The notes under the pieces were generated by a model. The model was given only the letters and a program-made list of their open reading frames with translations, was not told where the DNA came from and did no database searches. The position numbers were made by a program, and so were the translations under genes. A DNA stretch of 64,000 nt from a virus, in IMG/VR virus record IMGVR_UViG_3300031957_002411, positions 32,001 to 96,000 of that record; one strand, 5' to 3'. Shown piece by piece: positions 37,407 through 64,000 of this stretch (its first letter is position 1; each line of letters begins with the position of its first letter).

Positions 37407-37739
37407 ATGAAGCTTACATATACAACAGGAAATAAGAGGATCACAGCAGAATTTGAGGCAGATACTCACAGAGAGTTGTTTACTCAAATTTCTAAGTTTC
37501 AAGAAGTGTTTGAGGAAACTAAGTGTGGCAAATGTGGTTCTGAAAATCTTAGATTTGTAGTAAGGACTGTAGACGACAATGAATATTACGAACTAAGATG
37601 CACTGACTGTGGAGCTAAACTTGCATTTGGCTCAATGAAGAAGGGTGGAGGTCTATTCCCTAAACGTAAGGATGGAGACACTTGGCTACCTGATGGTGGT
37701 TGGCAGAAGTGGAATCCAAAGAAAAAGGCTATGGAGTAA
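37407..37739 (+). CDS. zinc-ribbon protein
   Basis: CGKCGS...YELRCTDCGAKLAFG. Confidence 0.7.
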   Translation: MKLTYTTGNKRITAEFEADTHRELFTQISKFQEVFEETKCGKCGSENLRFVVRTVDDNEYYELRCTDCGAKLAFGSMKKGGGLFPKRKDGDTWLPDGGWQKWNPKKKAME

Positions 37740-37773
37740 AAAGAAGGGGGTAGCGAAAGCTACCCCTTTTTTT
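37740..37773. terminator. bidirectional intrinsic terminator between convergent arms
   Basis: A-rich flank, stem GGGGTAGC (37747-54), GAAA loop, GCTACCCC (37759-66), T7 run; lies between two convergent stop codons. Confidence 0.9.
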
Positions 37774-38470
37774 ATGTCAAATACTCTACTGTAAAATAGA
37801 GTCCATATTGAGTCTTACTTCCAACAATATCTGGCTCAGAACTTAGAGCCACATACCAATCATGAAAAGTAGAAGAATGTGTGCTAGATTGATTTGTTGT
37901 ATATCCAAGACCTGTATCCGTGTCATTTGCACTAGTATTTTTACCGCTAGGTCCGGGTGAATTAGTGAACGTCATATCTGTCATTGCGATACCAGAACCA
38001 AAAGTTTGCCAAGTATTTTCTGTTCTCCCTCTAAAATCGAGTTGATTTTTAGTTTGGTCTGTAGCAGGATGTCTAGCTTCGTAAACATATGTGGTTACGC
38101 CGTATGCATTATTATCTATATCAGATCTATCAAAAATACGTAATTTACAATTTTGTACTTTATAAGATGTATCTGACTCAAATCTAATATTTAGTGGGCA
38201 TAGGTAATTAGGTAGATTATTAAGATTAATTGCTGTAGCACCATTTACTGATACTGTCGATCCACCGTCTTGATACGCTGTATTGTTGAGCTGTGCGGCC
38301 TCTGTCGTGCCATCAGCGCTAGTAACAAACGTTGTAGTTTGTACATTATCAACAGGAACGGAAGCACCAAAAGAGCTACCATAGAAGCCTATACCGCTAC
38401 CCGCTGTATGATCAATCAAAGTCTCTGTATCTGTGCCTTTTATATTGGCATAAAATTTAATATCTGGCAT
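37772..38470 (-). CDS. hypothetical virion protein
   Basis: Thr/Gly/Asn-rich beta-type composition; AGGAG RBS; last gene of the - strand arm. Confidence 0.7.
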   Translation of the reverse strand: MPDIKFYANIKGTDTETLIDHTAGSGIGFYGSSFGASVPVDNVQTTTFVTSADGTTEAAQLNNTAYQDGGSTVSVNGATAINLNNLPNYLCPLNIRFESDTSYKVQNCKLRIFDRSDIDNNAYGVTTYVYEARHPATDQTKNQLDFRGRTENTWQTFGSGIAMTDMTFTNSPGPSGKNTSANDTDTGLGYTTNQSSTHSSTFHDWYVALSSEPDIVGSKTQYGLYFTVEYLT

Positions 38471-38503
38471 GGAAAAACTCCTATAAAATGGTGTCTACGT
38501 ATT

Positions 38504-50900: not shown

Positions 50901-53900
50901 TTTTTTAATTCAATAGAACCTTTCAAATCTGAGTATGCAAACATTTCAGTAGACGGAGTGGTGCTTCCCTGTAGCGTAACTCCATTTGGAAGTCTAAAGT
51001 CTGTTACATCTGCGTACTTACCTCTAGCTTCTAATAATAAAGGTTTAATATTTATACCTAAACTATTTGCAATTTTCTCAACAGCTCGTATCCTATCAAT
51101 ACTAACTGATGATTCATTGCTACTACTACGACCTAAAGTAATATATAATTTTTTATTATTTGTTGAAAGCCATTCTTTAATAAATCCCATCTCTCTGTTA
51201 AACACTGTATCACTTATGGGATCACCATTATCGTCTAGCAGTGTCGGATTAGCAATCCAAGCAGCTTGATAATGATCGTTGTCTACATAAAATTTAAATG
51301 TTGTAATAGTATCTAATTTTCCGTCAGAAGGTATAGAGGCTTCAAGTAAAGCATCTAAGATAGACTCTTCTCTAGCTTCAAAGAATGAGTCAGTTCCTGT
51401 CCAATCAGCAATGAAAGCGAAGTCTTTTAGTCTCTCTGTTTCACTTCCAACCTCGTAAAGAAGATTGTCATAGAATAAAACATGTCTATCGTCACGACCA
51501 CTAAATATAAATGATCTTAGCTCTGTCTCAGTAGTGCCAATTAATATTACCTCTGACGAGCTTTCTGCATATTTTTCTTTAGCAGTTATTACCAAAGGCT
51601 GGATATTAACAGATGACCTCTTCTGTTCTTTTTCTGGATTGGATTCCCCTCTTAGAATATTAGTTTTATTAAACGATTGATCTGGAGTAGTTATAAATTT
51701 ACTAGGACTTGAAGTAGGCTGTATATTTAAATTAATACGCTTGTAATTATTTGAGTCAGCTGACCAGTAAAAAGCAGCCTCTTCAAAGGGATCATCTCCA
51801 AACACATCTTCAGATATAATTTCAGTACCCATTATATCTTCAATAATTATTTCATCTGGTGTAGCTGGTGTCACCTTCTCAAAACTAACATGTTCTGAAG
51901 CCACCATCAGAGGAATTGGCTCATAATTTATTAAAGTAGGAAATACTGGACAATCACCTTCACCAAGGCAACATCCATAATCAAGTTCATTAACAGTTCC
52001 AAACGCAAAAGCTAGATTAACTGGATATATGATAACTCCAAGACCTCTTGGGTCTTCACAAAAGTCATTCCATTCTGCTCTAAGGTCTCCACCGTGTTGA
52101 GGTATCATATTACATCTACTGTTTAGATCTGCATAACTTGGAAAATCTCCTATTTCTGGAATGCCAAGAATATTCTTTCTTTCTTCACAAGTATATGCTT
52201 CGTATATACCGGGGTAATTTAGTTTTATATCACCCACGCCTGATGCGTAAAGATCAGTACTAAGAACATAAGTTGATGTAGTATTTCTAGGAACAAAGGA
52301 TGGTATTACATTTGGTTCATTTTCATTGAATTCTTGGTCATCAAGTCTATTCGACCCAATCATAGATTCAAACGAATTTCTAGCAGGAACAATCGTCATT
52401 CTAGAATCTAATCGTTGAAGAATCTTATTTATTATTGCAGTGCCTTCTGCGTAAATCCCATTACCTTCAAATCTAGGATCATCAGCGACAAGAACTAAAT
52501 GTCTATCACCAAGACCCAACCAATCTTGTATGTTGTCTAAAACTTCATCACTTAGTGCATCTATTTCTGGAGTTATTATAAATGCTAATCCTGCGTCATT
52601 AGGAATGTCAACTTCACTCTCTGGCAGTCTAGTAAATGTTTTGGAATTTGAAGCAAAAATCTGCGACATGTGATCAAACAGATTAGCACCTTGTGATTCA
52701 ATATTTACAGATCTATGTTTGTTACCAAACAAAGTAAACTCTACAGCTTTATTGTTGTGCGGATAGTATCTTCTAGATTCAAAAACAGTTACAGAACCAG
52801 CATTAACACTATTGTACCATTGACTTTTAATATGTGTTACGTGATTGTAGTTAGTTTGTGGCCTCCACCATAGATCAATTAATCTAAGTGGATCGCCAGT
52901 ACCTATGTCGTCATGTAAAACGCTATCAGTTGGCGCACCAGCTGCTACTATACTACCATCCTCGTTAACTGCAACACTGTAGCCTAGCCTTGGAGTAGGA
53001 GCAAACTTATTAAACAACCAGCTCCATTCACCTCCCGGTTTTATTTCTGAATACTTATATTCTTTTATTAAATCATAACAATGTATATTATTATCTCTAC
53101 GTAACTGCAATTTACCACTTGGTGTTAATTCATCATACACAGCATTGTCAGCAACACTATTACTACCTGCCTCGCTTTGAAGACTTTGCCACCTTCTAAG
53201 CATGGTTCTCAAGTATCCCGTTGGATTGTCATTAGACCCAACATCAGAAAGCCAACTACCCACATAAGGTCTTGGATCTACGTAATTTTTTTGCCATATT
53301 TGAACTGCTTCATTAATATAAGGAGAGCCAATAGCAATAACATTTGCATCATCACTAATTGCAACAGCGTGTCCAAATCTATCTACCGTATTATTATTTA
53401 ATGTTGTTGGAGAATAAATCTCATCTATGATATTCCATCCAGAAACTCCATCATTATTTTCTTCTTCAAAAACAACAACTACACCACCACTAGGTGGAGC
53501 TACATTGAATGTAGCAGCATCAACGTCGAAGTTACCTATAAAGTTAGCAAACAATTCAAAATCTCTAGAATTTTTCATTCTATCTAAATCTAAAGTTTGA
53601 CGCAACAATTCATTGGAAAGATCTATCCACCTTTCTCCTCCAAGCTCTCTATTTGTAAACTCAGTTGTAGCTCCAGATCTAGGAGTTCCACCTATGTCTG
53701 TCACACCACTAGCAAGAGAGTATTCTGCATACCAATCTTTAAATCTATCGAATGAAGCACCTAGTTTTCCTGCTCCCATAGAAAAGCTATCATCAATAAT
53801 AGCAGAAACAATTACAGGTATATTATTGTTTGGTTTTGTTGCATCATACTTGAATACGCCACTCTCTGCACCGTGGAAGATTTGTTTTAGTTGTTCAAGC

Positions 53901-56900
53901 ATTTTGTCATCTGTAGCTTGCCATCCACCAGTTTGATTGTTATCAGTTCGTTTGTGATTATTAATCTCAAACTTGAACACTGTTCCATCTGCTTCTGGAT
54001 CTATAAATTCGTTAGGATCTGCATTAGCGTCATCCAAAACAGGCTCAACTACAATAATCTTAGGATCTATTTTAACAGCAGGATCACAATAGAACTTATA
54101 TAGTAAATCATGTTCTTCAATGACAGATAGAACATCACGCCATGTTTGCGTAATAGGATGTCCACCCGGACCACGGAATGTGCGCTCTTGCACAAATGGA
54201 GATGTAAAGACAAACAGGGCTACTTGTAAAGAATCTGGAACTGGGTCATCAAATCTTCTAGACCACTTACCGTTTGGCGCACCTGCAACAATAATAGGAC
54301 TGTTTCCAGAGCTAGACATGTCTAATGAATATCCTAGATTTCTACCTTCTTGGTTAAGCGTCCAGTTAGTCTGTATAGCAGCGAATGGAAGATCCCTCTG
54401 ATTGGCTGTCCCTTCATTCAATCTAGTAATGACGGATCTTGTCTTGCTATCTCTTCTCATTCCCTCTGGATAAGCCAGTTCTGTTACTAGAGAGAATCCA
54501 GATTTATCATCTTGCTCAGACCAATCAAAGCCGGTAGGTGCAGGATTTCTTTTGTACACAAATACTGAACCAGCTTCTCCAAGAGAATACGATCCAGTGA
54601 AATCGTGTACTTCACGATATGGCGCACCCACAAGTAAGTAGTTGCCCTTTGCTTTAACGGATGCTCCATATTCGTCACTGTAATCTCGACCAGAAGCTTC
54701 AGGAGTACTAACAACGCCAGAAGCTCCAGATATACCATCAGCAATTAACTTGATACCAGAGAAATTAACTTCATCATTAAACCCATACTCTATGCTCATT
54801 GATGCTGGAACACTTTTTCTGTCAGTGCCTCCAGACTTACCAAATATAGTCATTTCATAAGGAGAGTCAGGCACAAGTCCAGTATATTTTCTGATTCCAT
54901 AGAAGTGACCACTGTATCCTACATCTGTTTTAAAGCCACTAGTAGCTAGATTAGTATACAATCGTTTAGGTCTAAATATTCCAGCTTCTACACAATCATC
55001 ACCAAATGTTTCTCCGTGGATAGTAATTGGAGTCTCAGTTGCTCTTTCAAAATTGAAGTCACAGCTGCCAAATGCTGTCAAATCAACACCACGTATTTCA
55101 TCATTGGCTTCTAAATATGAATAATCAGTTTCATTTGCTAGAATACCTGTTCCAACATTTTCATTAGTCCAGTTGATGAAGTTGGAAGCATTGTCTGTAT
55201 TCGCCAAGAATGCGTAACTCATAGTTACAAGGTTTAGATTAGAAACTCCAGAAGGCACAACTCTAGAACCAATTACAAACAGAGGCATTTGATCTATATT
55301 TGTATCTTGTACTGGCTGTACTGTATTCTCAGTATACAGATTCATTAACTGTGTATCTGTAGTAGGATCTGGAATTGTACCATGTACGAATAAAGATTGT
55401 TGTTGATCTGTTTCGATCACGCCATCAGAGAATGAAAATAAACCTATACTACCAGATGGTGGCAGTGGTGTGATGTCCGTAGTGACAAATAAATTCATCT
55501 CAGAACGAGCATCCAACTCTATCTTACCACCAACAAAAAGACTAATAGCAGGATTATGAGTTTGTATATGTGGCTCATGACCAAATAATTCACCAATAGA
55601 ACCAAAAGAATTTAGACTTGGATCAAATGTTATACTTCCCTCGATGGTGCTAGTCACTAATGTCAAAGGTGGAATACTACCATTTATAGGATCGAGCGAT
55701 ACAATATTTGTACCAGAAGTGTAAAGATTAGCACTTCCACTAGCTACAGGAACAGCTTCACCGCTTGTGTATAGATTAAAGTTTCCAGAGTCTATGACAT
55801 GACTATTTACAAAGAACTCTATAGCTTGATTACGAATAGTGCGACCGTCAACATAGAAAGTAAATCCAGATTCAGGGATTATTATTCCAGAAGCCAAAGC
55901 CTCTTCAGCTCTAAGATTTACAGCATGTAATTTAAGATTAGATCTAAATGATGTGCCAGATGGATATGCTAAGTCATACTGAACAAACATTTCATCTAAA
56001 TCAAAATTGTAATATGCTTCAGTCTTTTCTCTATCAATTACATCGCTGTTGAAGTCAGCCCAAGGTTCTGAGTTGTCAATAAAATCTTCATAAGTGAAAG
56101 TACTGCTCAACTTTTGCCAGCAACCACTCTGCTCTAAGTAGTGTGCCTTACGATTTACTAAGCCATAATTACTTCTTTCAAGCTCACTGGTGTCGTTATA
56201 TTGTGGCGCATAAAGGCTAACAATTAACTTAGGACCAGTTGTTCCATCTGACCATGTAACATTATTATCAATGTCATGTTCCATTATGGTGTCAACAACT
56301 AATCCTCTTTGTGTAAAATCGTAACCTCTCGGTAAAGATTTAGATATTCTAGGTGTGACTGCGTAAAATCTATCACTATTGTCATCTCTTGGCACACTAA
56401 GATTAAATCTTAACATGTCATTTTCTATCTGAGAATGATAAGCTAAACCTGATACATTTATAGAGCCACTTGGTAAAGCAGTATCAGTCCTTTGAGTATA
56501 ACCACTACCATCATGAGATAGGTTAAAGATAACAAAATCCTTGCCTACTCTTGTTGTAAATCTATCAAACTCATGATTAAATTGACAAATCTTAAAGTCA
56601 CCCAAGTGCCACTTTTCAGTTTCATCGTTTACATATTCCCAGAAATTGTATTGTCGTTTATCGTAAGTAAGACTGCCACTATCAAATGGTACTTTAAGAG
56701 TCCTGAAGTAACCAGAGGCAGAGGTTTGCTGCATTACTCTAGATTGCTCAGACGGAATCAATCCTTGAACAATATTAGCACCACTAGCATTAAATCCACC
56801 TAAACCTATGTCTGTTATAAATGCGTTAATACCTATACCAGAACCATAAGAGTGACCAGCAATGATGTCGCTATTGCCTGATTGCATGACAAAGGTATTA

Positions 56901-59803
56901 GATCTTGCTCTAAATATATTATCTCTAGAGGAATCATCATCAGTATATAATTTAAGATAACGACTATCATTATCATTATAAGTTAGTAGTACGCTAAGTG
57001 GATAACTATACTTACTATACAATTTTGTATCAAAGACAGAGTTAATACTACCATCAGTGGCTCTAGCATATCCAGCAAGATATCCACCACTGTAACCAAG
57101 AGCAAATTCAAGTTCTTCTCCACTATCCCATTTGGATAACAGCACCCCAGAATCCCAAAGGTTGTAAGAGCTTCCACTAATACTTATGTCAGGAGAAAAT
57201 CTAACATAGGCCGAGAAACCTCCAGAAACTGGGATGCCGCTTCCAAAATTAATATTACCATCTACTCCAGATACTCTAATAGCTTTATTGAATGAATCAG
57301 AGATTCTACCTTTAAGTTCATGGTCTGATTGCACCCAATCAAGAGTTTTATATGATCGTTGCGAAGTATCAAAAATGCCACTACTGTTAAATCTAAGACC
57401 AATGTTTTCTACTATGCTGGCGTTTGCGTCAGAGTTAAAGAAACCACTAGCTGCCGCAGCAGCAAAAGCACCTATTGGGTTAGACAAAACAAAATTATCT
57501 TGAACGCGAGTGAAATCATAGAAGCCACTCATGAACGGAGTTTCTAGTTCTGGATTATAAAATCCATAGCCAAACTGAACTGGGTTGAATGGACCATTTA
57601 CAATCTCACCATCAACGCCTCTCCATCTTCTTGAATAATTTGTTTTAAGTGTTGATTCTTTATCTAATTCTTTATATCCATGAGGTATATTTTCTATCAA
57701 AGATGAATCTACAACTGTGATGTCTGAATTAATGTTTGTTGGAAAATCAGAAGAACCTGAAGGTAGAGCAAAGAACTCTGATCTGTGGAATGGCCTATTG
57801 TTATCTTGATGACCAACAACATGGAGAGGGAAAGCGTTGGAAGGCTTATAAGTAAATGATAAATATGCATGTGCAATTGCAGCGCCGCTGGGGAATGGGA
57901 ATATATCAAGATATAAATGTTCAAAGTAACTACTATCATTGTATGTAGTACTAGCACCTAGATCAACATCATCTTCATATATTTTTAGAGGTATTGTATA
58001 CTCTGCAAATTCTGTGCTATTTATAACAGGGCTTGTTGGAAGAGAATAATGATCACCACCTTCATTGTTAGTTCCAGATGTTGCGAAGTAACTAAACTTA
58101 TCAGAGAAAGTTTCTGTAGATATTCCAAGATCGTCAATCCCACCAAACCCAGACTCAACTGGCATTACACCAATGCCAGAAGGATGCTCACCAGAAGCAT
58201 TCTGTAGGAATCCACCTATCTTTGGAGTTATGTGGAAAAGTTTGTCATCGCTATATCCCACAACGTCTACAACAAAATCTCTAGTTCCAATTGCTTTTTT
58301 AGCTATTATCTTAAGTTCTATATCTTCTATTTGGAAGAAAGAATCTACTTCAGCAAAGTTTTTGCTTTGAGCTGTTTTCAACCCAAATCCAAACTGTCTG
58401 TCAAATTCACCATCTCTCAAGCCAAAGACAGAAGTTGGTGGTTCATGACCAAACTTTAATTTAAGTTTACCTGAGTCAGCAACGTCAGATGTCGATACTA
58501 ACTCAATAAATCTACCTTGATCGCTTGACCTTAAGGATTGAGTAATTTCATTCTCAACCTCATAATTAAATACATTACTATCATTCTTCCAAACTGAATT
58601 TTCACCAGATGGGTAAATAGTAGTATCATAATTGTAAGCTAATACTTGAGATGGTAATATCTCTCTTACTGAACGTAATCCTGTTTCTTGTGATTTTATG
58701 TATACTCCAAGATCGCCATTATCTATAATTCCAGACACACCTAAAGCACCACCGCTTGCCATGATTTCTATGGCTGCTATATTCAAAGTATCATGAACAT
58801 TTACGCCAGTTGGAATGCAGCTCTGGTCGTAGCCAATACTAAAGCCTTCAGTGAATGAGTCGTCATCTGGTCTGCATTGTACATCTATATCTAAATTTAA
58901 TGTATAACCATTACTCATATTGAGTATGGGATAATTAGCGTTAGATGTTAGCAACTTTGCATTATTAGTTTCAGCTTCAGATATATATGTTACATAATTT
59001 TTGTAATCACTATTGTCAGTATCAGCGTCACCTATGATATCAAAATCTTTATACTTAGTAATGAGATTGCCAGAGGGATCTTCTAATCTAAGATTTGAAA
59101 GTGTGTACTTTGGTGGCACATTAGAAGAAGATGAATTGAGTGGCGCTATAGCTCTAATAATTAAGAAGCTATCACGCATAGCAGGATATGGAGGATCTAC
59201 AAAACATTTGAATTTAAATGTTGTTTGTTCAGAAAGATCTCCACTTATAGCGATATTTTGGTTTTCATTTGCTACCAAGAAACTTTGTTTGAAATTGCCG
59301 GTAAATACACCTTCGTCAATATAATCTATTTTACTATCAGTATCTGTAATATCGGTGTGATTAAGAGTTTTAATAATAGTATTATTACCACTATCAAGAA
59401 TTAAATCACCACTGGGATATATCTTTTTAGTAGATATAAAATCATCTAAGCTTAATAGAGAACTATAATTACCTGCAAGTTTATCGACCGTGCCAGTTTT
59501 AATACTACCTGTACCAATAGTACGAGCTATAATGTTTCCTTCAATTAAATCAATAGTAGCATTAACAAATGCGTTTTTAGATGTATTGTCTGTTGGTTGT
59601 GCGCTTATTGATAGAGATGGCTTTTTTATACTTGATATGCTTTCAAATCTATGTATAAAACTATGAAAAGTTGTAGAACCTAATAAGGATGTTTCTGTAT
59701 TCAAATTTGTTAGCGCATTACCTTGAACAGATATCCCAGACAATAGCTTACTAGAGCCAGAAGGTCTACCTGTCATTTTAGCGCTGCAAAAAAAATCACT
59801 CAT
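47918..59803 (-). CDS. giant (3961 aa) adhesin-like virion protein: LamG-like, beta-strand repeats, 7 FG-GAP blades
   Basis: Seven (F/L/Y)G.S(V/L)...G(A/S)P units, LamG-like stretch ~56800-57300, NLYTSG repeats, very Ser-Gly-rich. Confidence 0.8.
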   Translation of the reverse strand: MSDFFCSAKMTGRPSGSSKLLSGISVQGNALTNLNTETSLLGSTTFHSFIHRFESISSIKKPSLSISAQPTDNTSKNAFVNATIDLIEGNIIARTIGTGSIKTGTVDKLAGNYSSLLSLDDFISTKKIYPSGDLILDSGNNTIIKTLNHTDITDTDSKIDYIDEGVFTGNFKQSFLVANENQNIAISGDLSEQTTFKFKCFVDPPYPAMRDSFLIIRAIAPLNSSSSNVPPKYTLSNLRLEDPSGNLITKYKDFDIIGDADTDNSDYKNYVTYISEAETNNAKLLTSNANYPILNMSNGYTLNLDIDVQCRPDDDSFTEGFSIGYDQSCIPTGVNVHDTLNIAAIEIMASGGALGVSGIIDNGDLGVYIKSQETGLRSVREILPSQVLAYNYDTTIYPSGENSVWKNDSNVFNYEVENEITQSLRSSDQGRFIELVSTSDVADSGKLKLKFGHEPPTSVFGLRDGEFDRQFGFGLKTAQSKNFAEVDSFFQIEDIELKIIAKKAIGTRDFVVDVVGYSDDKLFHITPKIGGFLQNASGEHPSGIGVMPVESGFGGIDDLGISTETFSDKFSYFATSGTNNEGGDHYSLPTSPVINSTEFAEYTIPLKIYEDDVDLGASTTYNDSSYFEHLYLDIFPFPSGAAIAHAYLSFTYKPSNAFPLHVVGHQDNNRPFHRSEFFALPSGSSDFPTNINSDITVVDSSLIENIPHGYKELDKESTLKTNYSRRWRGVDGEIVNGPFNPVQFGYGFYNPELETPFMSGFYDFTRVQDNFVLSNPIGAFAAAAASGFFNSDANASIVENIGLRFNSSGIFDTSQRSYKTLDWVQSDHELKGRISDSFNKAIRVSGVDGNINFGSGIPVSGGFSAYVRFSPDISISGSSYNLWDSGVLLSKWDSGEELEFALGYSGGYLAGYARATDGSINSVFDTKLYSKYSYPLSVLLTYNDNDSRYLKLYTDDDSSRDNIFRARSNTFVMQSGNSDIIAGHSYGSGIGINAFITDIGLGGFNASGANIVQGLIPSEQSRVMQQTSASGYFRTLKVPFDSGSLTYDKRQYNFWEYVNDETEKWHLGDFKICQFNHEFDRFTTRVGKDFVIFNLSHDGSGYTQRTDTALPSGSINVSGLAYHSQIENDMLRFNLSVPRDDNSDRFYAVTPRISKSLPRGYDFTQRGLVVDTIMEHDIDNNVTWSDGTTGPKLIVSLYAPQYNDTSELERSNYGLVNRKAHYLEQSGCWQKLSSTFTYEDFIDNSEPWADFNSDVIDREKTEAYYNFDLDEMFVQYDLAYPSGTSFRSNLKLHAVNLRAEEALASGIIIPESGFTFYVDGRTIRNQAIEFFVNSHVIDSGNFNLYTSGEAVPVASGSANLYTSGTNIVSLDPINGSIPPLTLVTSTIEGSITFDPSLNSFGSIGELFGHEPHIQTHNPAISLFVGGKIELDARSEMNLFVTTDITPLPPSGSIGLFSFSDGVIETDQQQSLFVHGTIPDPTTDTQLMNLYTENTVQPVQDTNIDQMPLFVIGSRVVPSGVSNLNLVTMSYAFLANTDNASNFINWTNENVGTGILANETDYSYLEANDEIRGVDLTAFGSCDFNFERATETPITIHGETFGDDCVEAGIFRPKRLYTNLATSGFKTDVGYSGHFYGIRKYTGLVPDSPYEMTIFGKSGGTDRKSVPASMSIEYGFNDEVNFSGIKLIADGISGASGVVSTPEASGRDYSDEYGASVKAKGNYLLVGAPYREVHDFTGSYSLGEAGSVFVYKRNPAPTGFDWSEQDDKSGFSLVTELAYPEGMRRDSKTRSVITRLNEGTANQRDLPFAAIQTNWTLNQEGRNLGYSLDMSSSGNSPIIVAGAPNGKWSRRFDDPVPDSLQVALFVFTSPFVQERTFRGPGGHPITQTWRDVLSVIEEHDLLYKFYCDPAVKIDPKIIVVEPVLDDANADPNEFIDPEADGTVFKFEINNHKRTDNNQTGGWQATDDKMLEQLKQIFHGAESGVFKYDATKPNNNIPVIVSAIIDDSFSMGAGKLGASFDRFKDWYAEYSLASGVTDIGGTPRSGATTEFTNRELGGERWIDLSNELLRQTLDLDRMKNSRDFELFANFIGNFDVDAATFNVAPPSGGVVVVFEEENNDGVSGWNIIDEIYSPTTLNNNTVDRFGHAVAISDDANVIAIGSPYINEAVQIWQKNYVDPRPYVGSWLSDVGSNDNPTGYLRTMLRRWQSLQSEAGSNSVADNAVYDELTPSGKLQLRRDNNIHCYDLIKEYKYSEIKPGGEWSWLFNKFAPTPRLGYSVAVNEDGSIVAAGAPTDSVLHDDIGTGDPLRLIDLWWRPQTNYNHVTHIKSQWYNSVNAGSVTVFESRRYYPHNNKAVEFTLFGNKHRSVNIESQGANLFDHMSQIFASNSKTFTRLPESEVDIPNDAGLAFIITPEIDALSDEVLDNIQDWLGLGDRHLVLVADDPRFEGNGIYAEGTAIINKILQRLDSRMTIVPARNSFESMIGSNRLDDQEFNENEPNVIPSFVPRNTTSTYVLSTDLYASGVGDIKLNYPGIYEAYTCEERKNILGIPEIGDFPSYADLNSRCNMIPQHGGDLRAEWNDFCEDPRGLGVIIYPVNLAFAFGTVNELDYGCCLGEGDCPVFPTLINYEPIPLMVASEHVSFEKVTPATPDEIIIEDIMGTEIISEDVFGDDPFEEAAFYWSADSNNYKRINLNIQPTSSPSKFITTPDQSFNKTNILRGESNPEKEQKRSSVNIQPLVITAKEKYAESSSEVILIGTTETELRSFIFSGRDDRHVLFYDNLLYEVGSETERLKDFAFIADWTGTDSFFEAREESILDALLEASIPSDGKLDTITTFKFYVDNDHYQAAWIANPTLLDDNGDPISDTVFNREMGFIKEWLSTNNKKLYITLGRSSSNESSVSIDRIRAVEKIANSLGINIKPLLLEARGKYADVTDFRLPNGVTLQGSTTPSTEMFAYSDLKGSIELKNAYGRISNNTIAEIRDIPLGSLVCVDIRSGGTALLSSQSRNSNDIHNITDDFIEIIDVPYLKTGVASVTFPVLAGSGYRVFVDTISANFNEKLQTNFLISNCDRRYGAQASGSNVEIKDVIHIPGNPQHNEFRTVANDFIGARIHKTRSEQQKYDINAFTPRQREFQFDGSVNHESINIYIPSGDGTTAIDVNEITIYMDANKINYTLEQAQSLSFNPSTTRIVGISGALLPSDVKLTPVPVKVGEREIIIPGTPEVVTTVTESRPVSTNSMKYCPSTECSGIFIERNPDGLIDDGPVVAAQEVYHQRPFDVGVDKSRITVLTDASLIQGSRIANENGVIHDTVADFLNSLYPDTVFPDENQGNSYNVISRIKAPVQSSPQKLFNSTGNSGLMIRFAGDGTTPTSGLQMNNFMDDVDPAAERNGNVITILDIDIGESPLYILPTDLPPRPEQVPALKKAQIASFDQEQYIYGGTAKFSGIIDGTMYADAFYGQMPQLLKDKGYDYLDFDKLPSGYPGDLFGYSVAIRDNKLVVGSPFAAFSSETPTTWTAVSGNTPRYEAISGTITSYGGGAGSAFLYERGTRTLSDYGVVGGSSKSWNVVRKFRPTSINVGQDIFDVELASGSLHLGNHAYTSGELDHLTRVTDQFGYSVDFRDDVLAVGAPGHDFPNFEEMIFSRGGEASGAFNHKAFSASIDIPERNIYDMGESGVRHEYALGGSGVTAVLNNGAVFVYEDAVSDWDSRTKDWQLVQKLVPQGYNSRLQKTVSASGSENDYFGKALSVSRDKTSDSDYIFAVGSPHHKFATSGNHTTFTMGLDAGAAYVSDGILRVPDQTTANTGIFLQARIYSDSGIDRSQTSNVSDFIYLEVHNSGGLNTEHETSGVLYTNNEGEIFLEVSGQDPSQRGFVVHRPFIKEITGQRFRGVPIDNRNFTLYTSGRPPVASGSMNLFAEVAEGRVLSSGLGLYASNIPDMVSGVFSGSGFNLYSSGVTTTPSP
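55200..55880 (-). repeat. ~12 degenerate peptide repeats (x-L-[FY]-[TV]-x-G)
   Basis: FTFYVDG, FNLYTSG, ANLYTSG, ISLFVGG, MNLFVTT, QSLFVHG, MNLYTEN, MPLFVIG; four more copies at the C-terminus (47920-48130). Confidence 0.7.
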
Positions 59804-59805
59804 TT

Positions 59806-62800
59806 TTATACTACCATACCGTCCCGTGTTAGTGATCCATCAGGACCAACGCTGTATTCACCAATAGCGTCTGAAACGTATTGCATAATATCGTTCTTAA
59901 GATTAGCAGTTAGATTATTTATAAATGAAGTGCCAGTTAGATTGACATTAATATTAGTTGTATCTAGTTTAATTTGGAATTGTGTATTTTGTAGGTTAGA
60001 AATATTATTAGCAAGTTGTGTGTTAAAATCTCTAAGTGAAGCGCTGAATGAATTTAGGACTTCTGGGCTTACGCCCATTCCACCACCTCCACCAGCTACT
60101 GGATTTTTACTGCCCTCATGTAGATATTGAACTTGTCCTCCTCTAGACATACCCTTGGCTGTGCTTCCTCCGCTATTCATAGATTGTAATATTGAAAGGT
60201 TATTACCACGTTGCACAGCAGATCTACGAACAACAAACTCGCCCGGAGTCAACATGGCAGGAACAGTATCAGTACCCTTTGGTACAAACATTCCTTTGCT
60301 AGCATAAACCATTCCACCTTTTGCAAAACCTGCTGCTGCTAATCTTTCTTTAACAGCTTCTAATTGTGTTTCAGCTGCTTGCATTTGAAGGTTGGCAGCA
60401 TCAAGCATCCTTGCCGCAGAATCAGCTTCAAGTTGAGCTGTTTCTGGTAGAGTTTGAGCTAATGCAATAATTTCTTGATTTATTGCATTTTCTTCGTCTG
60501 TTGTTCCAGCTATGACTCCAGCTTGATCAGCCATTCCAAAGCGAGATAAAGCACCAGCAGCAGCATTTTCAAGCACTCCACCACTACCGCCGATCTGTTG
60601 ACCAAATACAGTCTGTACTCCAGCATTCTGCATGTTTTGTAAGTTTTGCACAGCGCCACCCATGCCAGCCATTCCGAAAGATGACATCAAATTTTGATCA
60701 CCAAGGGCAGCTGCGGCAGTAGCTCCTTGAGTTGCACGACTCTTAAAGAATTCTTCAAAATCACCAGATATTAAAGATTCTAGACCTTTCTTTTCTTCAG
60801 CATTTCTAGCTTTAATTAATTCAAGTTCTCTCTGTTTTTCACTAATAAGTGCGCGGGTAAGATCAGCCTGTTCTTTTATAGCTGCGTTGAGACGATCTTG
60901 TTCGCCTTGCATCGCAGTGCCTTCCATTCTACCAATATCACCACCGCCAGCAACATTAAGTCTTGTTCCTTGTATTCTATTTGCTCTTGCTGTAATTTCA
61001 TTATTTCTTTGACGTATTTCACCGGCACTACCAGTTCTCAACTGAGTTAAACCAAGGTTGGAAGTACGGGCATTAGATTGTGCTATCAAACTTTGTTGAC
61101 GCTGTTGTGAGGTTACAGCTGGCCCACCAGCTTTAGCAATAATTTCAGCAGCTTCCAATTGTACCGCAATAACCTTAGCATTAGCATCAGCTAACTGATT
61201 CTCCAAAGCAATTCTCTTCTTGAGAATGCTAGCCATCTTTTGTTCAATTTCAGCAGATTTTTTTATAGCCTCTTGAAATTCTTTTAAAGACTCTTCTCCA
61301 AATTGATCAACAAGTTTCTGTAAAACACTGAAATCACCCCTATTCAATGCGTCTATATCACCTTGCTCTAGGTCAGCAGTAGATATCAAGGATTTTAGAT
61401 TGTCAATCTGTGTATCAGACATTATACCTTGCATCTGCTGTCCTATTTGATCAGCAAAGGCTTGTTTTAATTCTTGTGGATTCAGAGGGCCGTCTTTTGC
61501 AGGATCAAAACTTTTCTTTAAGTTTTCAATCACACTCGGAACTGCTGCTTGTGCTGCGTTAATTCCTGTAGTAGATTCTTTAAACTTATCAATTTGATCA
61601 GCACTAGCTCCAAGATTTTCTAAGGCTCTAGCACCTGTCTGGACAGCGCCAGCAAAAACGGCAGGGTCTAAGGCTGCACCCGCAGCAGTTAGACCAGCTT
61701 GTAAAGTACCCAAAGCATTCTCAATACTACTATTATCACCTAAATCTTCAAAATTACCTAAATTGTTTAGTGCGACGATAGAAGCGTCAGCAGCGGCATT
61801 TACATTTGTAAGTCCAAGATTTAATAATTCAAATTGTTTTCTAGCTCTTTCTACATCTTTTTGTATACTATCAAAAATATCTTCTAAACTAACGCCAGCT
61901 CTATCAAACGCTGCACGTAATGCTGGATCTAAACTAGCAAAAAATCCTTGAAAGTCACCACCAGAAGCTGCCATAGCTCTTGCTTGAGCTTGAACAGCAG
62001 GCATTGCTATCTTAGTTACATCTTGATCTCTAGCTTCTTGAGCTTTTCTCTCTTCTCTTCTGACTGTGGCGGTGGTTTTTTCCATTCCAAGCATCTGTCT
62101 TATTTGACCCGGAACACCACCAAGAAAACCAAACATAGAGTCACCACCACTTGAACTTCTCTCTGATGCCGTTACTGCCTCTTTTCCTCTTCTATTAGCT
62201 TCACTAGCAGATTCAGCAGCTGCGATGGCTGGTTCCAAAAATTCTGCTATAGAAATATTACCTTTGGTATATTCTTGGGCTGCTTTAGCTGCGTCTTCAT
62301 GAGCCTGAGCTAGTGCTTTTGCAGTAGCAGCTGCCTGTGCCTGAGCAGCAGCTTGAGTTTTAGCAACTTCAATACTAGGCTTTAAGACTTGAGCTATCAA
62401 TAATCCAAAAGCAGCGCCTATAGCAGCGCCAATTGGACCACCAAGTAAAAAGCCAAGAACAGCGCCGCCGCCTGCACCAGCTGCCTGAATACCCACTGAA
62501 TCAAATCCAGCACCCTCCACAGCGGCTCGCTCTGCCGCTGCAACATTACCGTCTTCTATGGCATATGTTAGCCTTTCAGTGACTCCATTTAATTTTTTCA
62601 ATAATCCAACAAAAAGATACATACCAGCGGCAGCAATCGCTGCTGCGCCAAATGCTTGTGTAACACTGCCAACAGCTGCACCAAGCTTTCCAAACTTGTC
62701 GCCTAATACGGTAAAACCTTGTCCCTGCTTCAATGGACCCATTCTTTCCTGAATGCCAGCCATTTTTCCGAATTTAGATGTGCCTAATCTATCACCAAAA

Positions 62801-64000
62801 TTTATACCCATTTGTTGACCGATATTAGTAAATGCCGATTTGCCTTCTCCCCCAAACAAGGCAAACATGCTGGAAACATTTGCTGCCTTAGCAAGTTCAG
62901 TAAGTCCTGTAGCAGCTGCTGTAATTGTAGTTCCAAATTCTAGAATCGAACTAGTATTTCTCATGAAAGCGCTGGTATTCTCATCAATAACTGGCATCAA
63001 AGCTTGTATAGAACCCAAAGCTAGAGTAAGACCTAAAGCACCGCTGATTCCTCCTTCTGCTTCACCACCATTCTTAAATCTTTGTACCTTACCGCCTGTA
63101 GCATATCTATTGATTTTTTTAAGATTACCATAACCAAAAGCTTCAGCAGATTTTCTATTTACAACAAATTCACCGGGAGTAAGAAGTGCTGGAACTGTGT
63201 CCGTACCAGCGCCACTAATGCCTCCACCTTTATTTCTTCTTGCGTATCTACCAGTAACGTTTGAGGGGCTAAGAGGAGATTTACCATGATCAATTAGATA
63301 TCTACCAAAACCCCCAGATGTACCAGTAATTTGATCTAACAACATCTCTTCTGTTGTTTTGTTAGATGTAAGATATTGCTTATACTGATACGTACCCCTA
63401 TTAGCAGCGTTACGAGCTGTTTTAGACGATGTTACTAGCGTGCTAGAAGGAATCTTAACTCCTCTACCAGCACCAGAACCTTTAGCCTTGGGAAATTCTT
63501 GTTCAGGGTTCAATGACTGTAATGCTGATAGTCTGGACTCAGCTACCCGACTAGGCTTTCCTTTGGTTTCATAAGCGTCATAACCTGCGGGTCTAAATGT
63601 TGCTCTGAATTTTTTCCCAGTAGGCGCGACCATTGCGCTAAACGTATCTCCATCATCCATTTTTATGCTTCGTTTATCTAGGCTAGCTAATTCTGCCATG
63701 CCGCCTGCTTTATATTTATTAATACTAGATAAATTTTTAGCACCAAAAGCTTGTACAGCGCTTTTACGAATTACAAACTCTCCCGGCGTAAGCATAGCTG
63801 GCACAGTATCAGAGTTTCCAGTACCGGGAACTGTACCTCCTCTATTCATACCTAAAGCTCCCTTAATACCACCAAATGCGCCTCCAAGACCCTTAGCGAT
63901 CTTAATAGTAGCGAAAGCTGCGATAAGTGGAATTAATGGCTTGATAGCATCAGCGACTTTCAAAAATGCACTAGCAATGTTTAAAGCAGAATTAGCTATA
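59806..64000 (-). CDS. tail tape measure-like protein, C-terminal part (5' truncated by window)
   Basis: Frame stays open to base 64000; Ala/Gly-rich helical and coiled-coil content, hydrophobic GGPIGAAIGAA segments, three GG..DTVPAxLTPGEFV repeats. Confidence 0.85.
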   Translation of the reverse strand, partial: IANSALNIASAFLKVADAIKPLIPLIAAFATIKIAKGLGGAFGGIKGALGMNRGGTVPGTGNSDTVPAMLTPGEFVIRKSAVQAFGAKNLSSINKYKAGGMAELASLDKRSIKMDDGDTFSAMVAPTGKKFRATFRPAGYDAYETKGKPSRVAESRLSALQSLNPEQEFPKAKGSGAGRGVKIPSSTLVTSSKTARNAANRGTYQYKQYLTSNKTTEEMLLDQITGTSGGFGRYLIDHGKSPLSPSNVTGRYARRNKGGGISGAGTDTVPALLTPGEFVVNRKSAEAFGYGNLKKINRYATGGKVQRFKNGGEAEGGISGALGLTLALGSIQALMPVIDENTSAFMRNTSSILEFGTTITAAATGLTELAKAANVSSMFALFGGEGKSAFTNIGQQMGINFGDRLGTSKFGKMAGIQERMGPLKQGQGFTVLGDKFGKLGAAVGSVTQAFGAAAIAAAGMYLFVGLLKKLNGVTERLTYAIEDGNVAAAERAAVEGAGFDSVGIQAAGAGGGAVLGFLLGGPIGAAIGAAFGLLIAQVLKPSIEVAKTQAAAQAQAAATAKALAQAHEDAAKAAQEYTKGNISIAEFLEPAIAAAESASEANRRGKEAVTASERSSSGGDSMFGFLGGVPGQIRQMLGMEKTTATVRREERKAQEARDQDVTKIAMPAVQAQARAMAASGGDFQGFFASLDPALRAAFDRAGVSLEDIFDSIQKDVERARKQFELLNLGLTNVNAAADASIVALNNLGNFEDLGDNSSIENALGTLQAGLTAAGAALDPAVFAGAVQTGARALENLGASADQIDKFKESTTGINAAQAAVPSVIENLKKSFDPAKDGPLNPQELKQAFADQIGQQMQGIMSDTQIDNLKSLISTADLEQGDIDALNRGDFSVLQKLVDQFGEESLKEFQEAIKKSAEIEQKMASILKKRIALENQLADANAKVIAVQLEAAEIIAKAGGPAVTSQQRQQSLIAQSNARTSNLGLTQLRTGSAGEIRQRNNEITARANRIQGTRLNVAGGGDIGRMEGTAMQGEQDRLNAAIKEQADLTRALISEKQRELELIKARNAEEKKGLESLISGDFEEFFKSRATQGATAAAALGDQNLMSSFGMAGMGGAVQNLQNMQNAGVQTVFGQQIGGSGGVLENAAAGALSRFGMADQAGVIAGTTDEENAINQEIIALAQTLPETAQLEADSAARMLDAANLQMQAAETQLEAVKERLAAAGFAKGGMVYASKGMFVPKGTDTVPAMLTPGEFVVRRSAVQRGNNLSILQSMNSGGSTAKGMSRGGQVQYLHEGSKNPVAGGGGGMGVSPEVLNSFSASLRDFNTQLANNISNLQNTQFQIKLDTTNINVNLTGTSFINNLTANLKNDIMQYVSDAIGEYSVGPDGSLTRDGMVV

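What the first reader, a model, noticed from the sequence alone, without database searches (positions are those of the whole stretch)
63060..63850. Thermonuclease (SNase)-like cargo domain bracketed by repeat motifs inside the tape measure protein
Seen in sequence: between two copies of the motif [N/A]xGG...DTVPAxLTPGEFV...IN(K/R)Y.xGG (aa ~39-88 and ~243-300 of the listed ORF) lies a ~150-aa basic, non-helical insert (~63275-63680) containing DDGDT, RPAGYDAYE and GGFGRYL. Established knowledge: these match, in order, the three staphylococcal-nuclease signatures (DGDT, RLxGIDAPE, DxYGRxL), and tape measure proteins are ejected into the host. Inference: the repeats are cassette borders or maturation sites, and the TMP acts as a polyprotein that delivers an effector nuclease at infection, with swappable cargo between repeats as in polymorphic toxins.
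Basis: partly seen in the sequence, partly recalled or inferred. Interest (0 to 1): 0.85.

Follow-up and report, generated by a model that had tools for sequence, protein, structure and literature searches.

The report
Staphylococcal-nuclease-like cassette inside phage tape measure
The tail-length "ruler" protein of an uncultured marine phage carries a divergent staphylococcal-nuclease-type domain in a slot fenced by two copies of an old lambda-like motif, and an almost identical phage holds an unrelated domain in that slot, so the ruler probably carries exchangeable enzymes into the host.

Summary
The ORF is a 1791-aa TP901-type tape measure protein (TMP). It starts beyond the window end. It holds three copies of a ~53-aa DTVPAxLTPGEFV module. 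Modules 1 and 2 bracket a ~150-aa insert (window 63241-63693).

The insert is a remote staphylococcal nuclease (SNase) homologue. Its family keeps DGD, R, D and E invariant. Its profile matches a shorter TMP cassette family (hhalign 98%, E 5e-14), and that family matches staphylococcal nuclease in PDB (E 6e-9). An AF2 model (pLDDT 87) has SNase and SN-like domains as its only Z>=5 matches among 48,161 chains (best Z 6.4, modest). The third motif (GGFGRYL = YGRGL) is not secured, and no Pfam SNase hit exists.

The "cassette" idea is supported. A TMP 84-100% identical elsewhere (one window 67%) carries an unrelated 94-aa segment exactly between the modules. That segment's family shows no nuclease fold here.

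The module matches lambda gpH 733-783, next to the region where gpH is cleaved. Cleavage, release and nuclease activity in this phage are unshown.

Earlier agents of this scan noted the same architecture on other DNA, with a different cassette. The verdict is a new variant of TMP-embedded enzyme domains. Interest is moderate to high.

The parts
59806..64000 (-). Tape measure protein gene. This is the window part, aa 395-1791 plus the stop codon. The gene continues 1181 nt past the window end to its ATG. Full length is 1791 aa (P0002).
   Evidence: PF10145 PhageMin_Tail at aa 128-311, 80.8 bits against a cut-off of 33.2.
63871..63978 (-). Hydrophobic, Gly-rich segment (aa 402-437) directly before module 1.
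   Evidence: Kyte-Doolittle 19-residue window peaks of 1.35-1.54. Translation checked.
63694..63852 (-). Module 1 (aa 444-496), a DTVPAMLTPGEFV module ending in YKAGG.
   Evidence: Module HMM E 4.6e-26. Translation checked.
63241..63693 (-). SNase-like cassette (aa 497-647). The domain defined by the A1 profile spans aa 490-654, i.e. 63220-63714.
63643..63654 (-). DGDT (aa 510-513), the counterpart of SNase D19-G20-D21-T22. D, G and D are invariant in 18 of 18 homologues.
63568..63594 (-). RPAGYDAYE (aa 530-538). R530, D535 and E538 are the counterparts of SNase R35, D40 and E43. All are invariant in 18 of 18 homologues.
63295..63315 (-). GGFGRYL (aa 623-629), with invariant R627. It is a candidate counterpart of SNase R87, but the assignment is ambiguous.
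   Evidence: Invariant R. The AF2 model puts it at the start of the last strand of a hairpin. hhalign instead pairs it with the helix-2 segment of the canonical cassette.
63085..63240 (-). Module 2 (aa 648-699), a DTVPALLTPGEFV module ending in YATGG.
   Evidence: Module HMM E 1.5e-24. Translation checked.
62983..63054 (-). Hydrophobic, Gly-rich segment (aa 710-733) directly after module 2.
   Evidence: Hydropathy peak of 1.67. Translation checked.
60130..60309 (-). Module 3 (aa 1625-1684), 107 aa before the C-terminus. Its position corresponds to the single module of lambda gpH.
   Evidence: Module HMM E 1.7e-22. Lambda comparison.

Best explanation
The gene encodes the tape measure protein of an uncultured, low-GC marine tailed phage. 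Between a first and second copy of a conserved ~53-aa module lies an exchangeable slot. The same module occurs once near the C-terminus of lambda gpH. In this phage the slot holds a divergent member of the staphylococcal nuclease (thermonuclease) superfamily. This domain has an OB-fold core, the Ca-binding Asp pair, Arg and Glu, and a ~55-aa lineage-specific insertion after helix 1.

Shown:
- Homology and fold of the domain, and conservation of its catalytic residues.
- Slot exchange between near-identical TMPs.
- Homology of the module to lambda gpH.

Inferred:
- TMPs leave the tail ahead of the DNA and form the trans-envelope conduit. This is established for lambda gpH* (PMC12617516). The cassette would therefore be carried into the host envelope at the moment of infection, before any phage gene is expressed.
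- The cassette is flanked on both sides by hydrophobic, Gly-rich segments. It would most likely be displayed as a loop next to the entry channel.
- There it would act as a divalent-cation-dependent nuclease on host or competing nucleic acid.
- The Ca dependence of canonical SNases (recalled knowledge) favours the periplasmic side in seawater.

Release by cleavage near the modules is possible by analogy with gpH to gpH* plus gpHC. It is not required for this mechanism.
For: TMP identity:
- PF10145 scores 80.8 bits.
- 3421 proteins reached E<=0.001 to aa 440-720 among 8000 scored candidates. Of the 120 listed, 113 carry a precomputed PF10145 hit.

SNase homology and fold:
- The insert family A1 (18 sequences) has D, G, D, R, D, Y, E invariant in the positions and spacing of SNase D19-G20-D21, R35, D40 and E43.
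- A1 against the short cassette family A2 gives hhalign probability 98.2%, E 4.7e-14, over the 41 columns from DGDT to DAYE.
- The A2 profile against PDB sequences matches staphylococcal nuclease at E 6.3e-9 over positions 3-119. DGD, R, D, E and GR are aligned, and 228 distinct sequences matched.
- 2 of the 6 A2-type cassettes scanned have PF00565 as their best Pfam hit (19.7 and 18.0 bits).
- The AF2 model has pLDDT 87.1 and pTM 0.83, with strand-strand-strand-helix order as in SNase.
- An unbiased VIA search of 48,161 chains found 4 with Z>=5, and all four are SNase or SN-like: 1sta_A (Z 6.4, rmsd 3.8, 103 aligned, 18% identity), SND1 (5.5), an eTudor domain (5.4) and Tudor-SN (5.2).
- In a second look, 211 of 999 chains reached Z>=5. 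The 50 rows shown are all staphylococcal nuclease (Z 6.2-6.6, 94-106 aligned, 18-23% identity).

Cassette slot:
- P0012 is 84-100% identical per 50-column window outside the slot (one window at 67%) and 22-29% identical in the three windows over it.
It always starts next to module 1.

Module:
- The module HMM hits lambda gpH 733-783 at 22.5 bits.
- gpH* forms the trans-envelope channel. gpH is cleaved in the Gly-rich region at about 690-710 (PMC12617516, passages).
Against: Weak or missing sequence and fold support:
- There is no direct sequence hit to SNase. 0 of 18 A1 members hit PF00565 even at E<=10. The whole TMP and the insert alone also give none.
- The insert and the A1 profile find nothing significant in PDB sequences.
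- Foldseek gives no match with E<=0.001 in PDB or BFVD. SNase rows there have TM about 0.2.
- Z 6.4 is in the range that the tool's own note calls common for unrelated models.

The second catalytic arginine:
- The R87 equivalent is unproven. The best profile alignment of the C-terminal halves (E 6e-4, probability 29%) pairs GGFGRYLIDHG with SNase helix 2, not with YGR.
- SNase helices 2 and 3 are not evident after the last strand.

Context:
- No activity, virion or processing data exist.
- The alternative cassette of P0012 shows no nuclease fold (best Z 3.0). The slot is therefore not demonstrably a nuclease slot.
- No peptidase domain was detected in the six ORFs downstream. PHROGs named only one of the ten ORFs upstream, as a baseplate-wedge/tail-fibre-connector family, with no peptidase-named hit.
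- An active nuclease beside the phage's own DNA end would need to be kept latent.
Confidence: 0.5

Rival explanations
1. The modules, or their (F/Y)xxGG ends, are maturation sites. The TMP is cut there during tail assembly or after ejection, and a free soluble SNase effector is released into the cell.
For: - The module is homologous to lambda gpH 733-783. That segment lies just after the Gly-rich region where gpH is cut into gpH* and gpHC (PMC12617516, passages).
- Each module begins and ends with an xGG motif. Ten [FYMK]xxGG sites occur in the protein, and most sit at module edges.
- The cassette borders in the P0002/P0012 swap coincide with these motifs.
Against: - The lambda cleavage site and its protease are unknown. 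The module itself lies inside gpHC, not at the inferred cut.
- No peptidase domain was found in the six ORFs downstream. PHROGs named only one of the ten ORFs upstream, with no peptidase-named hit.
- In 14 of the 29 SNase-bearing proteins, no second module follows the cassette directly. Bracketing is therefore not universal.
- No proteomic data exist.
Confidence: 0.25
2. The domain is a non-catalytic SNase-like OB fold. It would serve as a nucleic-acid-binding or structural element of the TMP, for example gripping the leading DNA end in the tail tube or plugging and gating the channel. The SN domains of Tudor-SN, which bind but do not cut, would be the model.
For: - The closest folds include the non-nuclease SN-like domains of SND1/Tudor-SN and eTudor proteins (Z 5.2-5.5).
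- The R87 equivalent and SNase helices 2-3 are uncertain or missing.
- The domain carries a large lineage-specific insertion.
- In lambda the DNA end sits in the tube beside the TMP (PMC12617516, passage).
Against: - The metal-ligand Asp pair, Arg and Glu are invariant in 18 of 18 homologues that are only 32-79% identical to the query. They are also invariant in the 8 short-form cassettes.
- Such conservation is not expected of a mere binding scaffold. That SN domains used only for binding have lost these residues is recalled knowledge and was not tested here.
Confidence: 0.2
3. The resemblance to SNase is chance. The insert would be a TMP-specific domain of unrelated origin that happens to carry DGD and DAYE.
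For: - No Pfam hit and no direct PDB sequence hit.
- Foldseek is not significant.
- The VIA Z score is only 6.4.
Against: - Two independent routes converge on the same family. The sequence route runs A1 to A2 (E 4.7e-14) and A2 to SNase (E 6.3e-9). The fold route gives SNase or SN-like domains as the only Z>=5 matches among 48,161 chains.
- The motif residues have the same order and spacing as in SNase and are the invariant ones.
Confidence: 0.05

Closest known systems
Staphylococcal nuclease / thermonuclease family (Pfam PF00565; PDB 1stn, 1sta and others)
   Same: The insert shares the OB-fold core with the beta1-beta2-beta3-helix order. It has DGD, then R-x4-D-x2-E, with the same spacing. 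These are the Ca-ligand aspartates, the phosphate-binding Arg and the general-base Glu. The best structural matches are to this family.
   Different: The insert sits inside a 1791-aa virion protein and is not a secreted stand-alone enzyme. It has a ~55-aa insertion (a hairpin plus two helices) after helix 1. Helices 2 and 3 are not recognisable. The YGR arginine assignment is ambiguous. It scores below every Pfam threshold.
Short SNase cassettes in related TMPs (family A2: P0031, P0042, P0044, P0049, P0051, P0054, P0060, P0066)
   Same: These occupy the same slot directly after module 1. They are homologous over the segment from DGDT to DAYE (E 4.7e-14).
   Different: They are 101-137 aa long and lack the insertion. 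They retain the KYGR motif and helix 2. They are recognisably canonical: PDB E 6.3e-9, and PF00565 at 18-19.7 bits.
Lambda tape measure protein gpH (processed to gpH* and gpHC)
   Same: The ~53-aa module matches gpH 733-783. In both proteins the module follows a hydrophobic, Gly-rich stretch. For module 3, it also lies about 70-110 aa from the C-terminus. gpH* is ejected and forms the trans-envelope channel (PMC12617516, passages).
   Different: Lambda has one module, no cassette and no known enzymatic activity. It belongs to a different N-terminal family: PF06791 and PF09718, against PF10145 here. The function of the module is unknown, because this part of gpHC is unresolved in lambda.
TMPs with embedded cell-wall hydrolase domains (mycobacteriophage TM4 Tmp; T5 pb2 C-terminal peptidase)
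   Same: These are enzymatic domains carried inside a tape measure protein and delivered at infection. Sources: TM4, PMC1796659, search listing only; T5 pb2C, as cited in PMC12617516 passages.
   Different: Those domains attack peptidoglycan, whereas here the fold is that of a nuclease. No paper in the library describes a nuclease in a TMP. Searches were read as listings only, and the four papers holding both "tape measure" and "thermonuclease" treat them as separate genes or topics (one checked by passages).
Repeat-fenced cassettes in TMPs noted earlier in this scan (e1-5732841 and first-reader notes)
   Same: The architecture is the same (module, cassette, module), and the same kind of swap is seen between near-identical TMPs (retested here).
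   Different: Those notes concern a G.xFE...DFP...DAK cassette read as PD-(D/E)xK-like. Here the cassette is SNase-like.
Polymorphic toxins / polyvalent proteins (Iyer et al. 2017, PMC5512222)
   Same: A conserved delivery scaffold carries interchangeable enzymatic domains.
   Different: The cassette here is internal, not C-terminal. No immunity gene was examined. The paper holds none of the terms "tape measure", "tape-measure", "SNase" or "staphylococcal nuclease" (find mode).

Membership tests
Staphylococcal nuclease superfamily (PF00565) | OB-fold barrel with helix 1 between strands 3 and 4 | tested here: met
   The AF2 model has pLDDT 87.1. Its only Z>=5 matches among 48,161 chains are SNase or SN-like (best 1sta_A: Z 6.4, rmsd 3.8, 103 aligned). 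In the second look, 211 of 999 chains reached Z>=5, and all 50 rows shown are SNase. Z is modest and Foldseek is not significant.
Staphylococcal nuclease superfamily (PF00565) | Ca-ligand Asp pair (D21, D40), Arg35 and Glu43 in the order DGD...R-x4-D-x2-E | tested here: met
   These residues are invariant in 18 of 18 A1 sequences. The columns align from A1 to A2, and from A2 to SNase D19-G20-D21, R35, D40 and E43.
Staphylococcal nuclease superfamily (PF00565) | Second phosphate-binding arginine (R87 in the YGR motif before strand 5) | tested here: inconclusive
   R627 (A1 position 138) is invariant and starts the last strand of a hairpin in the model. However, hhalign pairs GGFGRYLIDHG with the helix-2 segment of A2 (E 6e-4, probability 29%). 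Model coordinates could not be inspected.
Staphylococcal nuclease superfamily (PF00565) | Score above Pfam's gathering threshold (21 bits) | tested here: not met
   0 of 18 A1 members hit PF00565 at E<=10. The insert alone and the whole TMP also give none. The related short cassettes reach 19.7 and 18.0 bits.
Staphylococcal nuclease superfamily (PF00565) | Ca2+-dependent hydrolysis of DNA/RNA to 3'-phosphates | not testable with these tools
   This needs an enzyme assay.
TP901-type phage tail tape measure protein (PF10145) | PhageMin_Tail domain above the cut-off in a very long protein of the tail gene block | tested here: met
   PF10145 scores 80.8 bits against a cut-off of 33.2 at aa 128-311. 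The protein is 1791 aa. Neighbouring genes are a 3961-aa FG-GAP protein downstream and a baseplate/tail-fibre connector PHROG upstream.
Lambda gpH-type C-terminal module | Sequence similarity to gpH 733-783 | tested here: met
   The module HMM hits lambda gpH at 22.5 bits, E 3.7e-9 for this one-sequence test. No Pfam family covers the module: PF09718 ends at gpH residue 701, and the three modules of this protein give 0 hits.
Lambda gpH-type C-terminal module | Proteolytic processing of the TMP next to the module | not testable with these tools
   Processing is known for lambda only, with site and protease unknown (PMC12617516). No proteomics exists for this phage.
PD-(D/E)xK nuclease fold (for the alternative cassette of P0012, family A3) | Restriction-endonuclease-like alpha-beta-beta-beta-alpha-beta core carrying E...D...(D/E)xK | tested here: inconclusive
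   In 27 sequences G33, E37 and K77 are invariant and F56 of DFP is nearly so. The AF2 model (pLDDT 75.3) is mostly helical with two short strands. The best VIA Z is 3.0, with no Z>=5 among 48,161 chains. The A3 profile found nothing in PDB sequences. The P0012 cassette gave no Pfam hit, and ten other inter-module segments, several with the same motif pattern, gave no hit with E<0.1.
Polymorphic toxin systems | Variable toxin domain on a conserved scaffold, exchanged between close relatives | tested here: met
   P0002 and P0012 are 84-100% identical in the flanks (one window 67%) and unrelated in the insert. 229 inter-module segments fall into 78 single-linkage clusters, or 108 stricter clusters.
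Polymorphic toxin systems | C-terminal position of the toxin domain and an adjacent cognate immunity gene | tested here: not met
   The cassette is internal: aa 497-647 of 1791. No immunity gene was looked for.

The most novel reading that the evidence does not exclude
A large clade of marine phages uses the tape measure protein as a modular injection vehicle. Lambda-gpH-type modules would act both as recombination fences and as processing or docking sites. The slots between them would hold ready-made enzymes that reach the host envelope or cytoplasm with the first protein to leave the tail, before any phage gene is expressed. Here the enzyme is an SNase-type nuclease, and elsewhere it is an unrelated domain. 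This would be a virion-borne, rapidly exchangeable takeover or counter-defence arsenal, analogous to polymorphic toxins.
Probability: 0.17. Interest if true: 0.85.

Novelty: new variant of a known kind. Interest (0 to 1): 0.62.

Why it matters
Enzyme domains inside tape measure proteins are known only as cell-wall hydrolases (TM4, T5). A conserved nuclease-type active site in that position would mean that some phages deliver a nucleic-acid-cutting enzyme with the very first protein that enters the cell. That bears on host takeover, on exclusion of competitors and on evasion of early defences.

The exact swap between near-identical TMPs shows that the slot is an evolutionary hot spot with defined borders. 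The homology of those borders to lambda gpH ties the finding to an old open question: why, where and by what gpH is cleaved. The unresolved part of gpHC thereby becomes a concrete, conserved target for experiments in a tractable model phage.

Tried and rejected
Searches that gave nothing useful:
- The insert alone against Pfam (E<=10) and PDB sequences: no hit.
- The A1 profile against PDB sequences: only retinol-binding protein (E 0.086) and cyanophycinase (E 1.5). Both were rejected as chance.
- All 18 A1 members against Pfam: 0 SNase hits.
- Foldseek against PDB and BFVD: 0 matches with E<=0.001. Thermonuclease-named rows are enriched among the weak ones, but with poor TM scores.
- Protein atlas: no usable hit for the insert. 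For the P0012 cassette, only scores below 0.9.
- PF00565 in the phage's own 135.8-kb record: 0 matches at E<=10.
- tblastn of aa 440-699 against 50,697 phage records: 21 records. All matched only a module (17-22% of the query), and none matched the insert.
- The A1 profile against longer proteins: 3 hits only. The tool warns that this search is weak.

Neighbourhood:
- PHROGs on ten upstream ORFs: one ORF with hits, a baseplate/tail-fibre connector family and one family of unknown function.
- Pfam on six downstream ORFs: only FG-GAP repeats, and no peptidase.

Idea tested and not supported:
- I had considered that the slot alternates between two nuclease folds (SNase and PD-(D/E)xK). The A3 family gave no PDB sequence hit. 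The P0012 cassette gave no Pfam hit, and ten other inter-module segments gave none with E<0.1. The AF2 model's best structural match is Z 3.0.

Other negative checks:
- GC content of the insert (0.37-0.45) does not differ from its flanks.
- The three modules are only 68% alike as DNA (mean column identity), with no long identical run.
- Supplementary files of papers were not consulted.
Full report
WHAT IS THERE

The window is bases 32001-96000 of a 135,790-bp linear virus record, estimated 83% complete. GC content is about 0.30-0.43. Fetching the flank shows a single 1791-aa gene, P0002, whose window part is 59806-64000 on the minus strand.

The protein carries PF10145 (PhageMin_Tail) at aa 128-311, scoring 80.8 bits against a cut-off of 33.2. 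It is therefore a TP901-type tape measure protein (TMP). Directly downstream lies a 3961-aa ORF with FG-GAP repeats. Upstream, one of ten ORFs hits a baseplate/tail-fibre-connector PHROG. The other upstream ORFs have no family hit, so the phage is far from cultured ones.

THE REPEATS

It locates three copies in P0002: aa 444-496, 648-699 and 1625-1684, at E 5e-26, 2e-24 and 2e-22. The consensus printed is KFASGGSVPGKGTDTVPAMLTPGEFVINKSAVQKIGLGNLKKINKKYAKGGVV.

As DNA the three copies are only 68% alike (mean column identity), with no long identical run. The conservation is therefore at the protein level.

The module is very widespread. 3421 proteins reached E<=0.001 to aa 440-720 among 8000 scored candidates; 113 of the 120 listed carry PF10145. 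Among 50,697 phage records it occurs in Gordonia phage TMPs, in Ralstonia phages and in a "transmembrane protein" of T4-like cyanophages.

No Pfam family covers the module. The module HMM matches lambda gpH at aa 733-783, at 22.5 bits and E 3.7e-9 for this single-sequence test. PF09718 (Tape_meas_lam_C) covers gpH 627-701, just upstream of the module.

According to passages of PMC12617516:
- gpH is cut in a Gly-rich region at about residue 690-710 into gpH* and gpHC.
- The site and the protease are unknown.
- Residues ~690-817 of gpHC are unresolved.
- gpH* forms the trans-envelope channel.

In P0002 each of modules 1 and 2 abuts a hydrophobic, Gly-rich segment (aa 402-437 and aa 710-733). Module 3 lies 107 aa from the C-terminus, as the lambda module does.

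THE INSERT IS SNASE-LIKE

Direct searches fail:
- No Pfam or PDB sequence hit for the insert.
- No significant hit for a profile of 18 homologues, A1.
- None for any of the 18 members scanned singly.

An exhaustive phmmer search of 1.84 billion representatives found only 13 clusters at E<=1e-3 (7 at <=1e-10, 1 at <=1e-30). The 13 listed proteins are 176-6311 aa long. Nine exceed 2000 aa and the four shortest (176, 348, 511, 951 aa) may be fragments. All 13 carry at least one copy of the module.

In A1 (32-79% identity to the query) 15 columns are invariant. They include D-G-D of DGDT, and R, D, Y, E of R-x4-D-A-Y-E.

The link to SNase comes through a second, shorter cassette family, A2. It has 8 sequences of 101-137 aa in the same slot of other TMPs.
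- A1 against A2 gives hhalign probability 98.2% and E 4.7e-14 over the 41 columns from DGDT to DAYE.
- The A2 profile hits staphylococcal nuclease chains at E 6.3e-9 over nearly its whole length. It aligns DGD with D19-G20-D21, R with R35, D and E with D40 and E43, and GR with G86-R87.
- Two of the six A2 cassettes scanned have PF00565 as best Pfam hit, at 19.7 and 18.0 bits, just under the cut-off of 21.

Independently, an AF2 model of the insert (pLDDT 87.1, pTM 0.83) was compared with 48,161 representative PDB chains. Four reached Z>=5, and all four are SNase or SN-like domains:
- 1sta_A: Z 6.4, rmsd 3.8 A, 103 of 137 residues aligned, 18% identity.
- SND1: Z 5.5.
- An extended Tudor domain: Z 5.4.
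- Tudor-SN: Z 5.2.

A second look at Foldseek's top 999 chains gave 211 with Z>=5. The 50 rows shown are all staphylococcal nuclease (Z 6.2-6.6).

RESULTS AGAINST THE SNASE READING, OR LIMITING IT

- Foldseek itself gives no match at E<=0.001 in PDB or BFVD. Its SNase rows have TM about 0.2.
- The VIA tool notes that a best Z of 7-8 is typical even for models without true relatives. The fold evidence counts only because it agrees with the sequence route.
R627 of GGFGRYL is invariant and begins the last strand of a hairpin in the model, as R87 does.
- However, extended and C-terminal-only hhalign runs pair GGFGRYLIDHG with the FGxKLIxAGLA segment of A2. That is SNase helix 2. The alignment has E 6e-4 and probability 29%, and the YGR pairing did not appear.
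- Relative to SNase, the domain has a ~55-aa insertion after helix 1 and no recognisable helices 2 and 3 after the last strand.

I could not inspect the coordinates. The superposition of the catalytic residues therefore rests on alignments, not on geometry.

THE SLOT IS EXCHANGEABLE

P0012 (1722 aa) is 84-100% identical to P0002 in every 50-column window outside the insert, except one window at 67%. It is 22-29% identical in the three windows over the insert. There it has an unrelated 94-aa segment that starts after YKAG and ends at the shared Y-A-(R/K)-R-N-K-G-G, which opens module 2. P0023 and P0048 carry that same cassette.

Across the session's proteins, 229 inter-module segments of 60-750 aa fall into 78 single-linkage clusters, or 108 under stricter criteria.

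Among the 120 distinct TMPs:
- 18 carry an SNase-type cassette.
- 63 carry the P0012-type core (G.xFE...DFP...DAK).
- One (P0066) carries both in tandem, and is included in both counts above.
- 40 carry neither.

This set was retrieved with this very region as the query, so the proportions are biased.

Over all 131 proteins, 29 have an SNase-type cassette (21 long form, 8 short form). It always starts directly after module 1. A second module follows at once in 15 of them. In the other 14, which include giant TMP-like proteins of 4324-6311 aa and some fragments, it does not.

THE ALTERNATIVE CASSETTE

Earlier notes of this scan read the G.xFE family as PD-(D/E)xK-like. I tested it.
- In 27 sequences G33, E37 and K77 are invariant.
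- The profile finds nothing in PDB sequences.
- The P0012 cassette has no Pfam hit. Ten other inter-module segments, several with the same motif pattern, have none with E<0.1.
- The AF2 model (pLDDT 75.3) is mostly helical.
- Its best structural match is Z 3.0, with no nuclease among the rows shown.

The claim that two nuclease folds alternate in the slot is therefore not supported here. It is not excluded either.

HOW IT MOST LIKELY WORKS

Shown:
- An SNase-superfamily domain with conserved metal-ligand, Arg and Glu residues.
- Its location in a bounded, exchangeable slot of a TMP.
- Homology of the slot's borders to the gpH module.

Inferred from established TMP biology (lambda gpH*, T5 pb2; passages):
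- The TMP leaves the tail first and builds the conduit.
- The cassette lies between two hydrophobic segments, so it would be displayed beside the channel at the moment of entry.
- There it would act as a metal-dependent nuclease.

Canonical SNases are Ca2+-dependent extracytoplasmic enzymes. That is recalled knowledge and would favour a periplasmic site of action in seawater. The substrate is unknown.

Cleavage near the modules is possible by analogy with lambda. Nothing here shows it. No peptidase domain was found in the six ORFs downstream, and PHROGs named only one of the ten ORFs upstream.

NOVELTY

Enzymatic domains in TMPs are known as peptidoglycan hydrolases. TM4 is documented in PMC1796659 (listing only). 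T5 pb2C is cited in PMC12617516.

Three full-text searches, read as listings, turned up no paper describing a nuclease domain inside a TMP:
- "tape measure protein" with "nuclease domain" and "phage".
- "tape measure" with "thermonuclease".
- "tape measure protein" with "embedded", "nuclease" and "ejected".

The one paper with many hits for both "tape measure" and "thermonuclease" lists them as separate genes (passages). The polyvalent-protein paper holds none of the four terms sought.

This scan had already noted the fenced-cassette architecture on other DNA, so the architecture is not new to the scan. New here are the SNase identity of the cassette, its two forms, and the negative test of the PD-(D/E)xK reading.

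VERDICT

- It is a new variant of a known kind (a TMP-embedded enzyme domain).
- Interest is 0.62.

Noticed in passing
window 47918-59803 (-): A 3961-aa ORF lies directly downstream of the TMP. Its only Pfam hit is FG-GAP repeats near the C-terminus (PF14312, E 5.8e-18). It is presumably a giant tail-tip or fibre protein. ORFs of 488, 113, 1385 and 1160 aa follow, with no Pfam hit.
   Followed up: partly
proteins P0127 (6311 aa), P0129 (5601), P0131 (5565), P0132 (5023), P0130 (4367), P0123 (4324): These are giant TMP-like proteins with two to six modules and an SNase-type cassette after the first module. If they really are tape measures, they imply extraordinarily long tails, or a role other than measuring length.
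   Followed up: no
protein P0066, aa 523-873: Slot 1 holds a short SNase cassette and a G.xFE...DFP...DAK core in tandem, so cassettes can be stacked as well as swapped.
   Followed up: partly
phage records GU071095 / NC_015279 (S-SM2, about 7677-7841), P-TIM68, SynMITS9220M01, Bellamy: The same module occurs in a "putative transmembrane protein" or hypothetical protein of T4-like cyanophages. Those phages have contractile tails and a different TMP.
   Followed up: no
window about 37700-38500: Gene orientation and GC skew switch here. The plus-strand genes end at about 37.7 kb, and the minus-strand tail block runs from 37772 to beyond the window end.
   Followed up: no
protein P0134 (682 aa, JGI): This PF10145 protein carries an A1-like domain (30% identity, 89% coverage). 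Its source names it "CII-binding regulator of phage lambda lysogenization HflD", which is probably a misannotation.
   Followed up: no
BFVD entry A0A6J5NQ80 (1342 aa, uncultured Caudovirales phage): This large phage protein is named "Staphylococcal nuclease (SNase-like), OB-fold". It appears among the weak Foldseek rows, together with baseplate hub proteins. It may be another structural protein with an SN-like domain.
   Followed up: no
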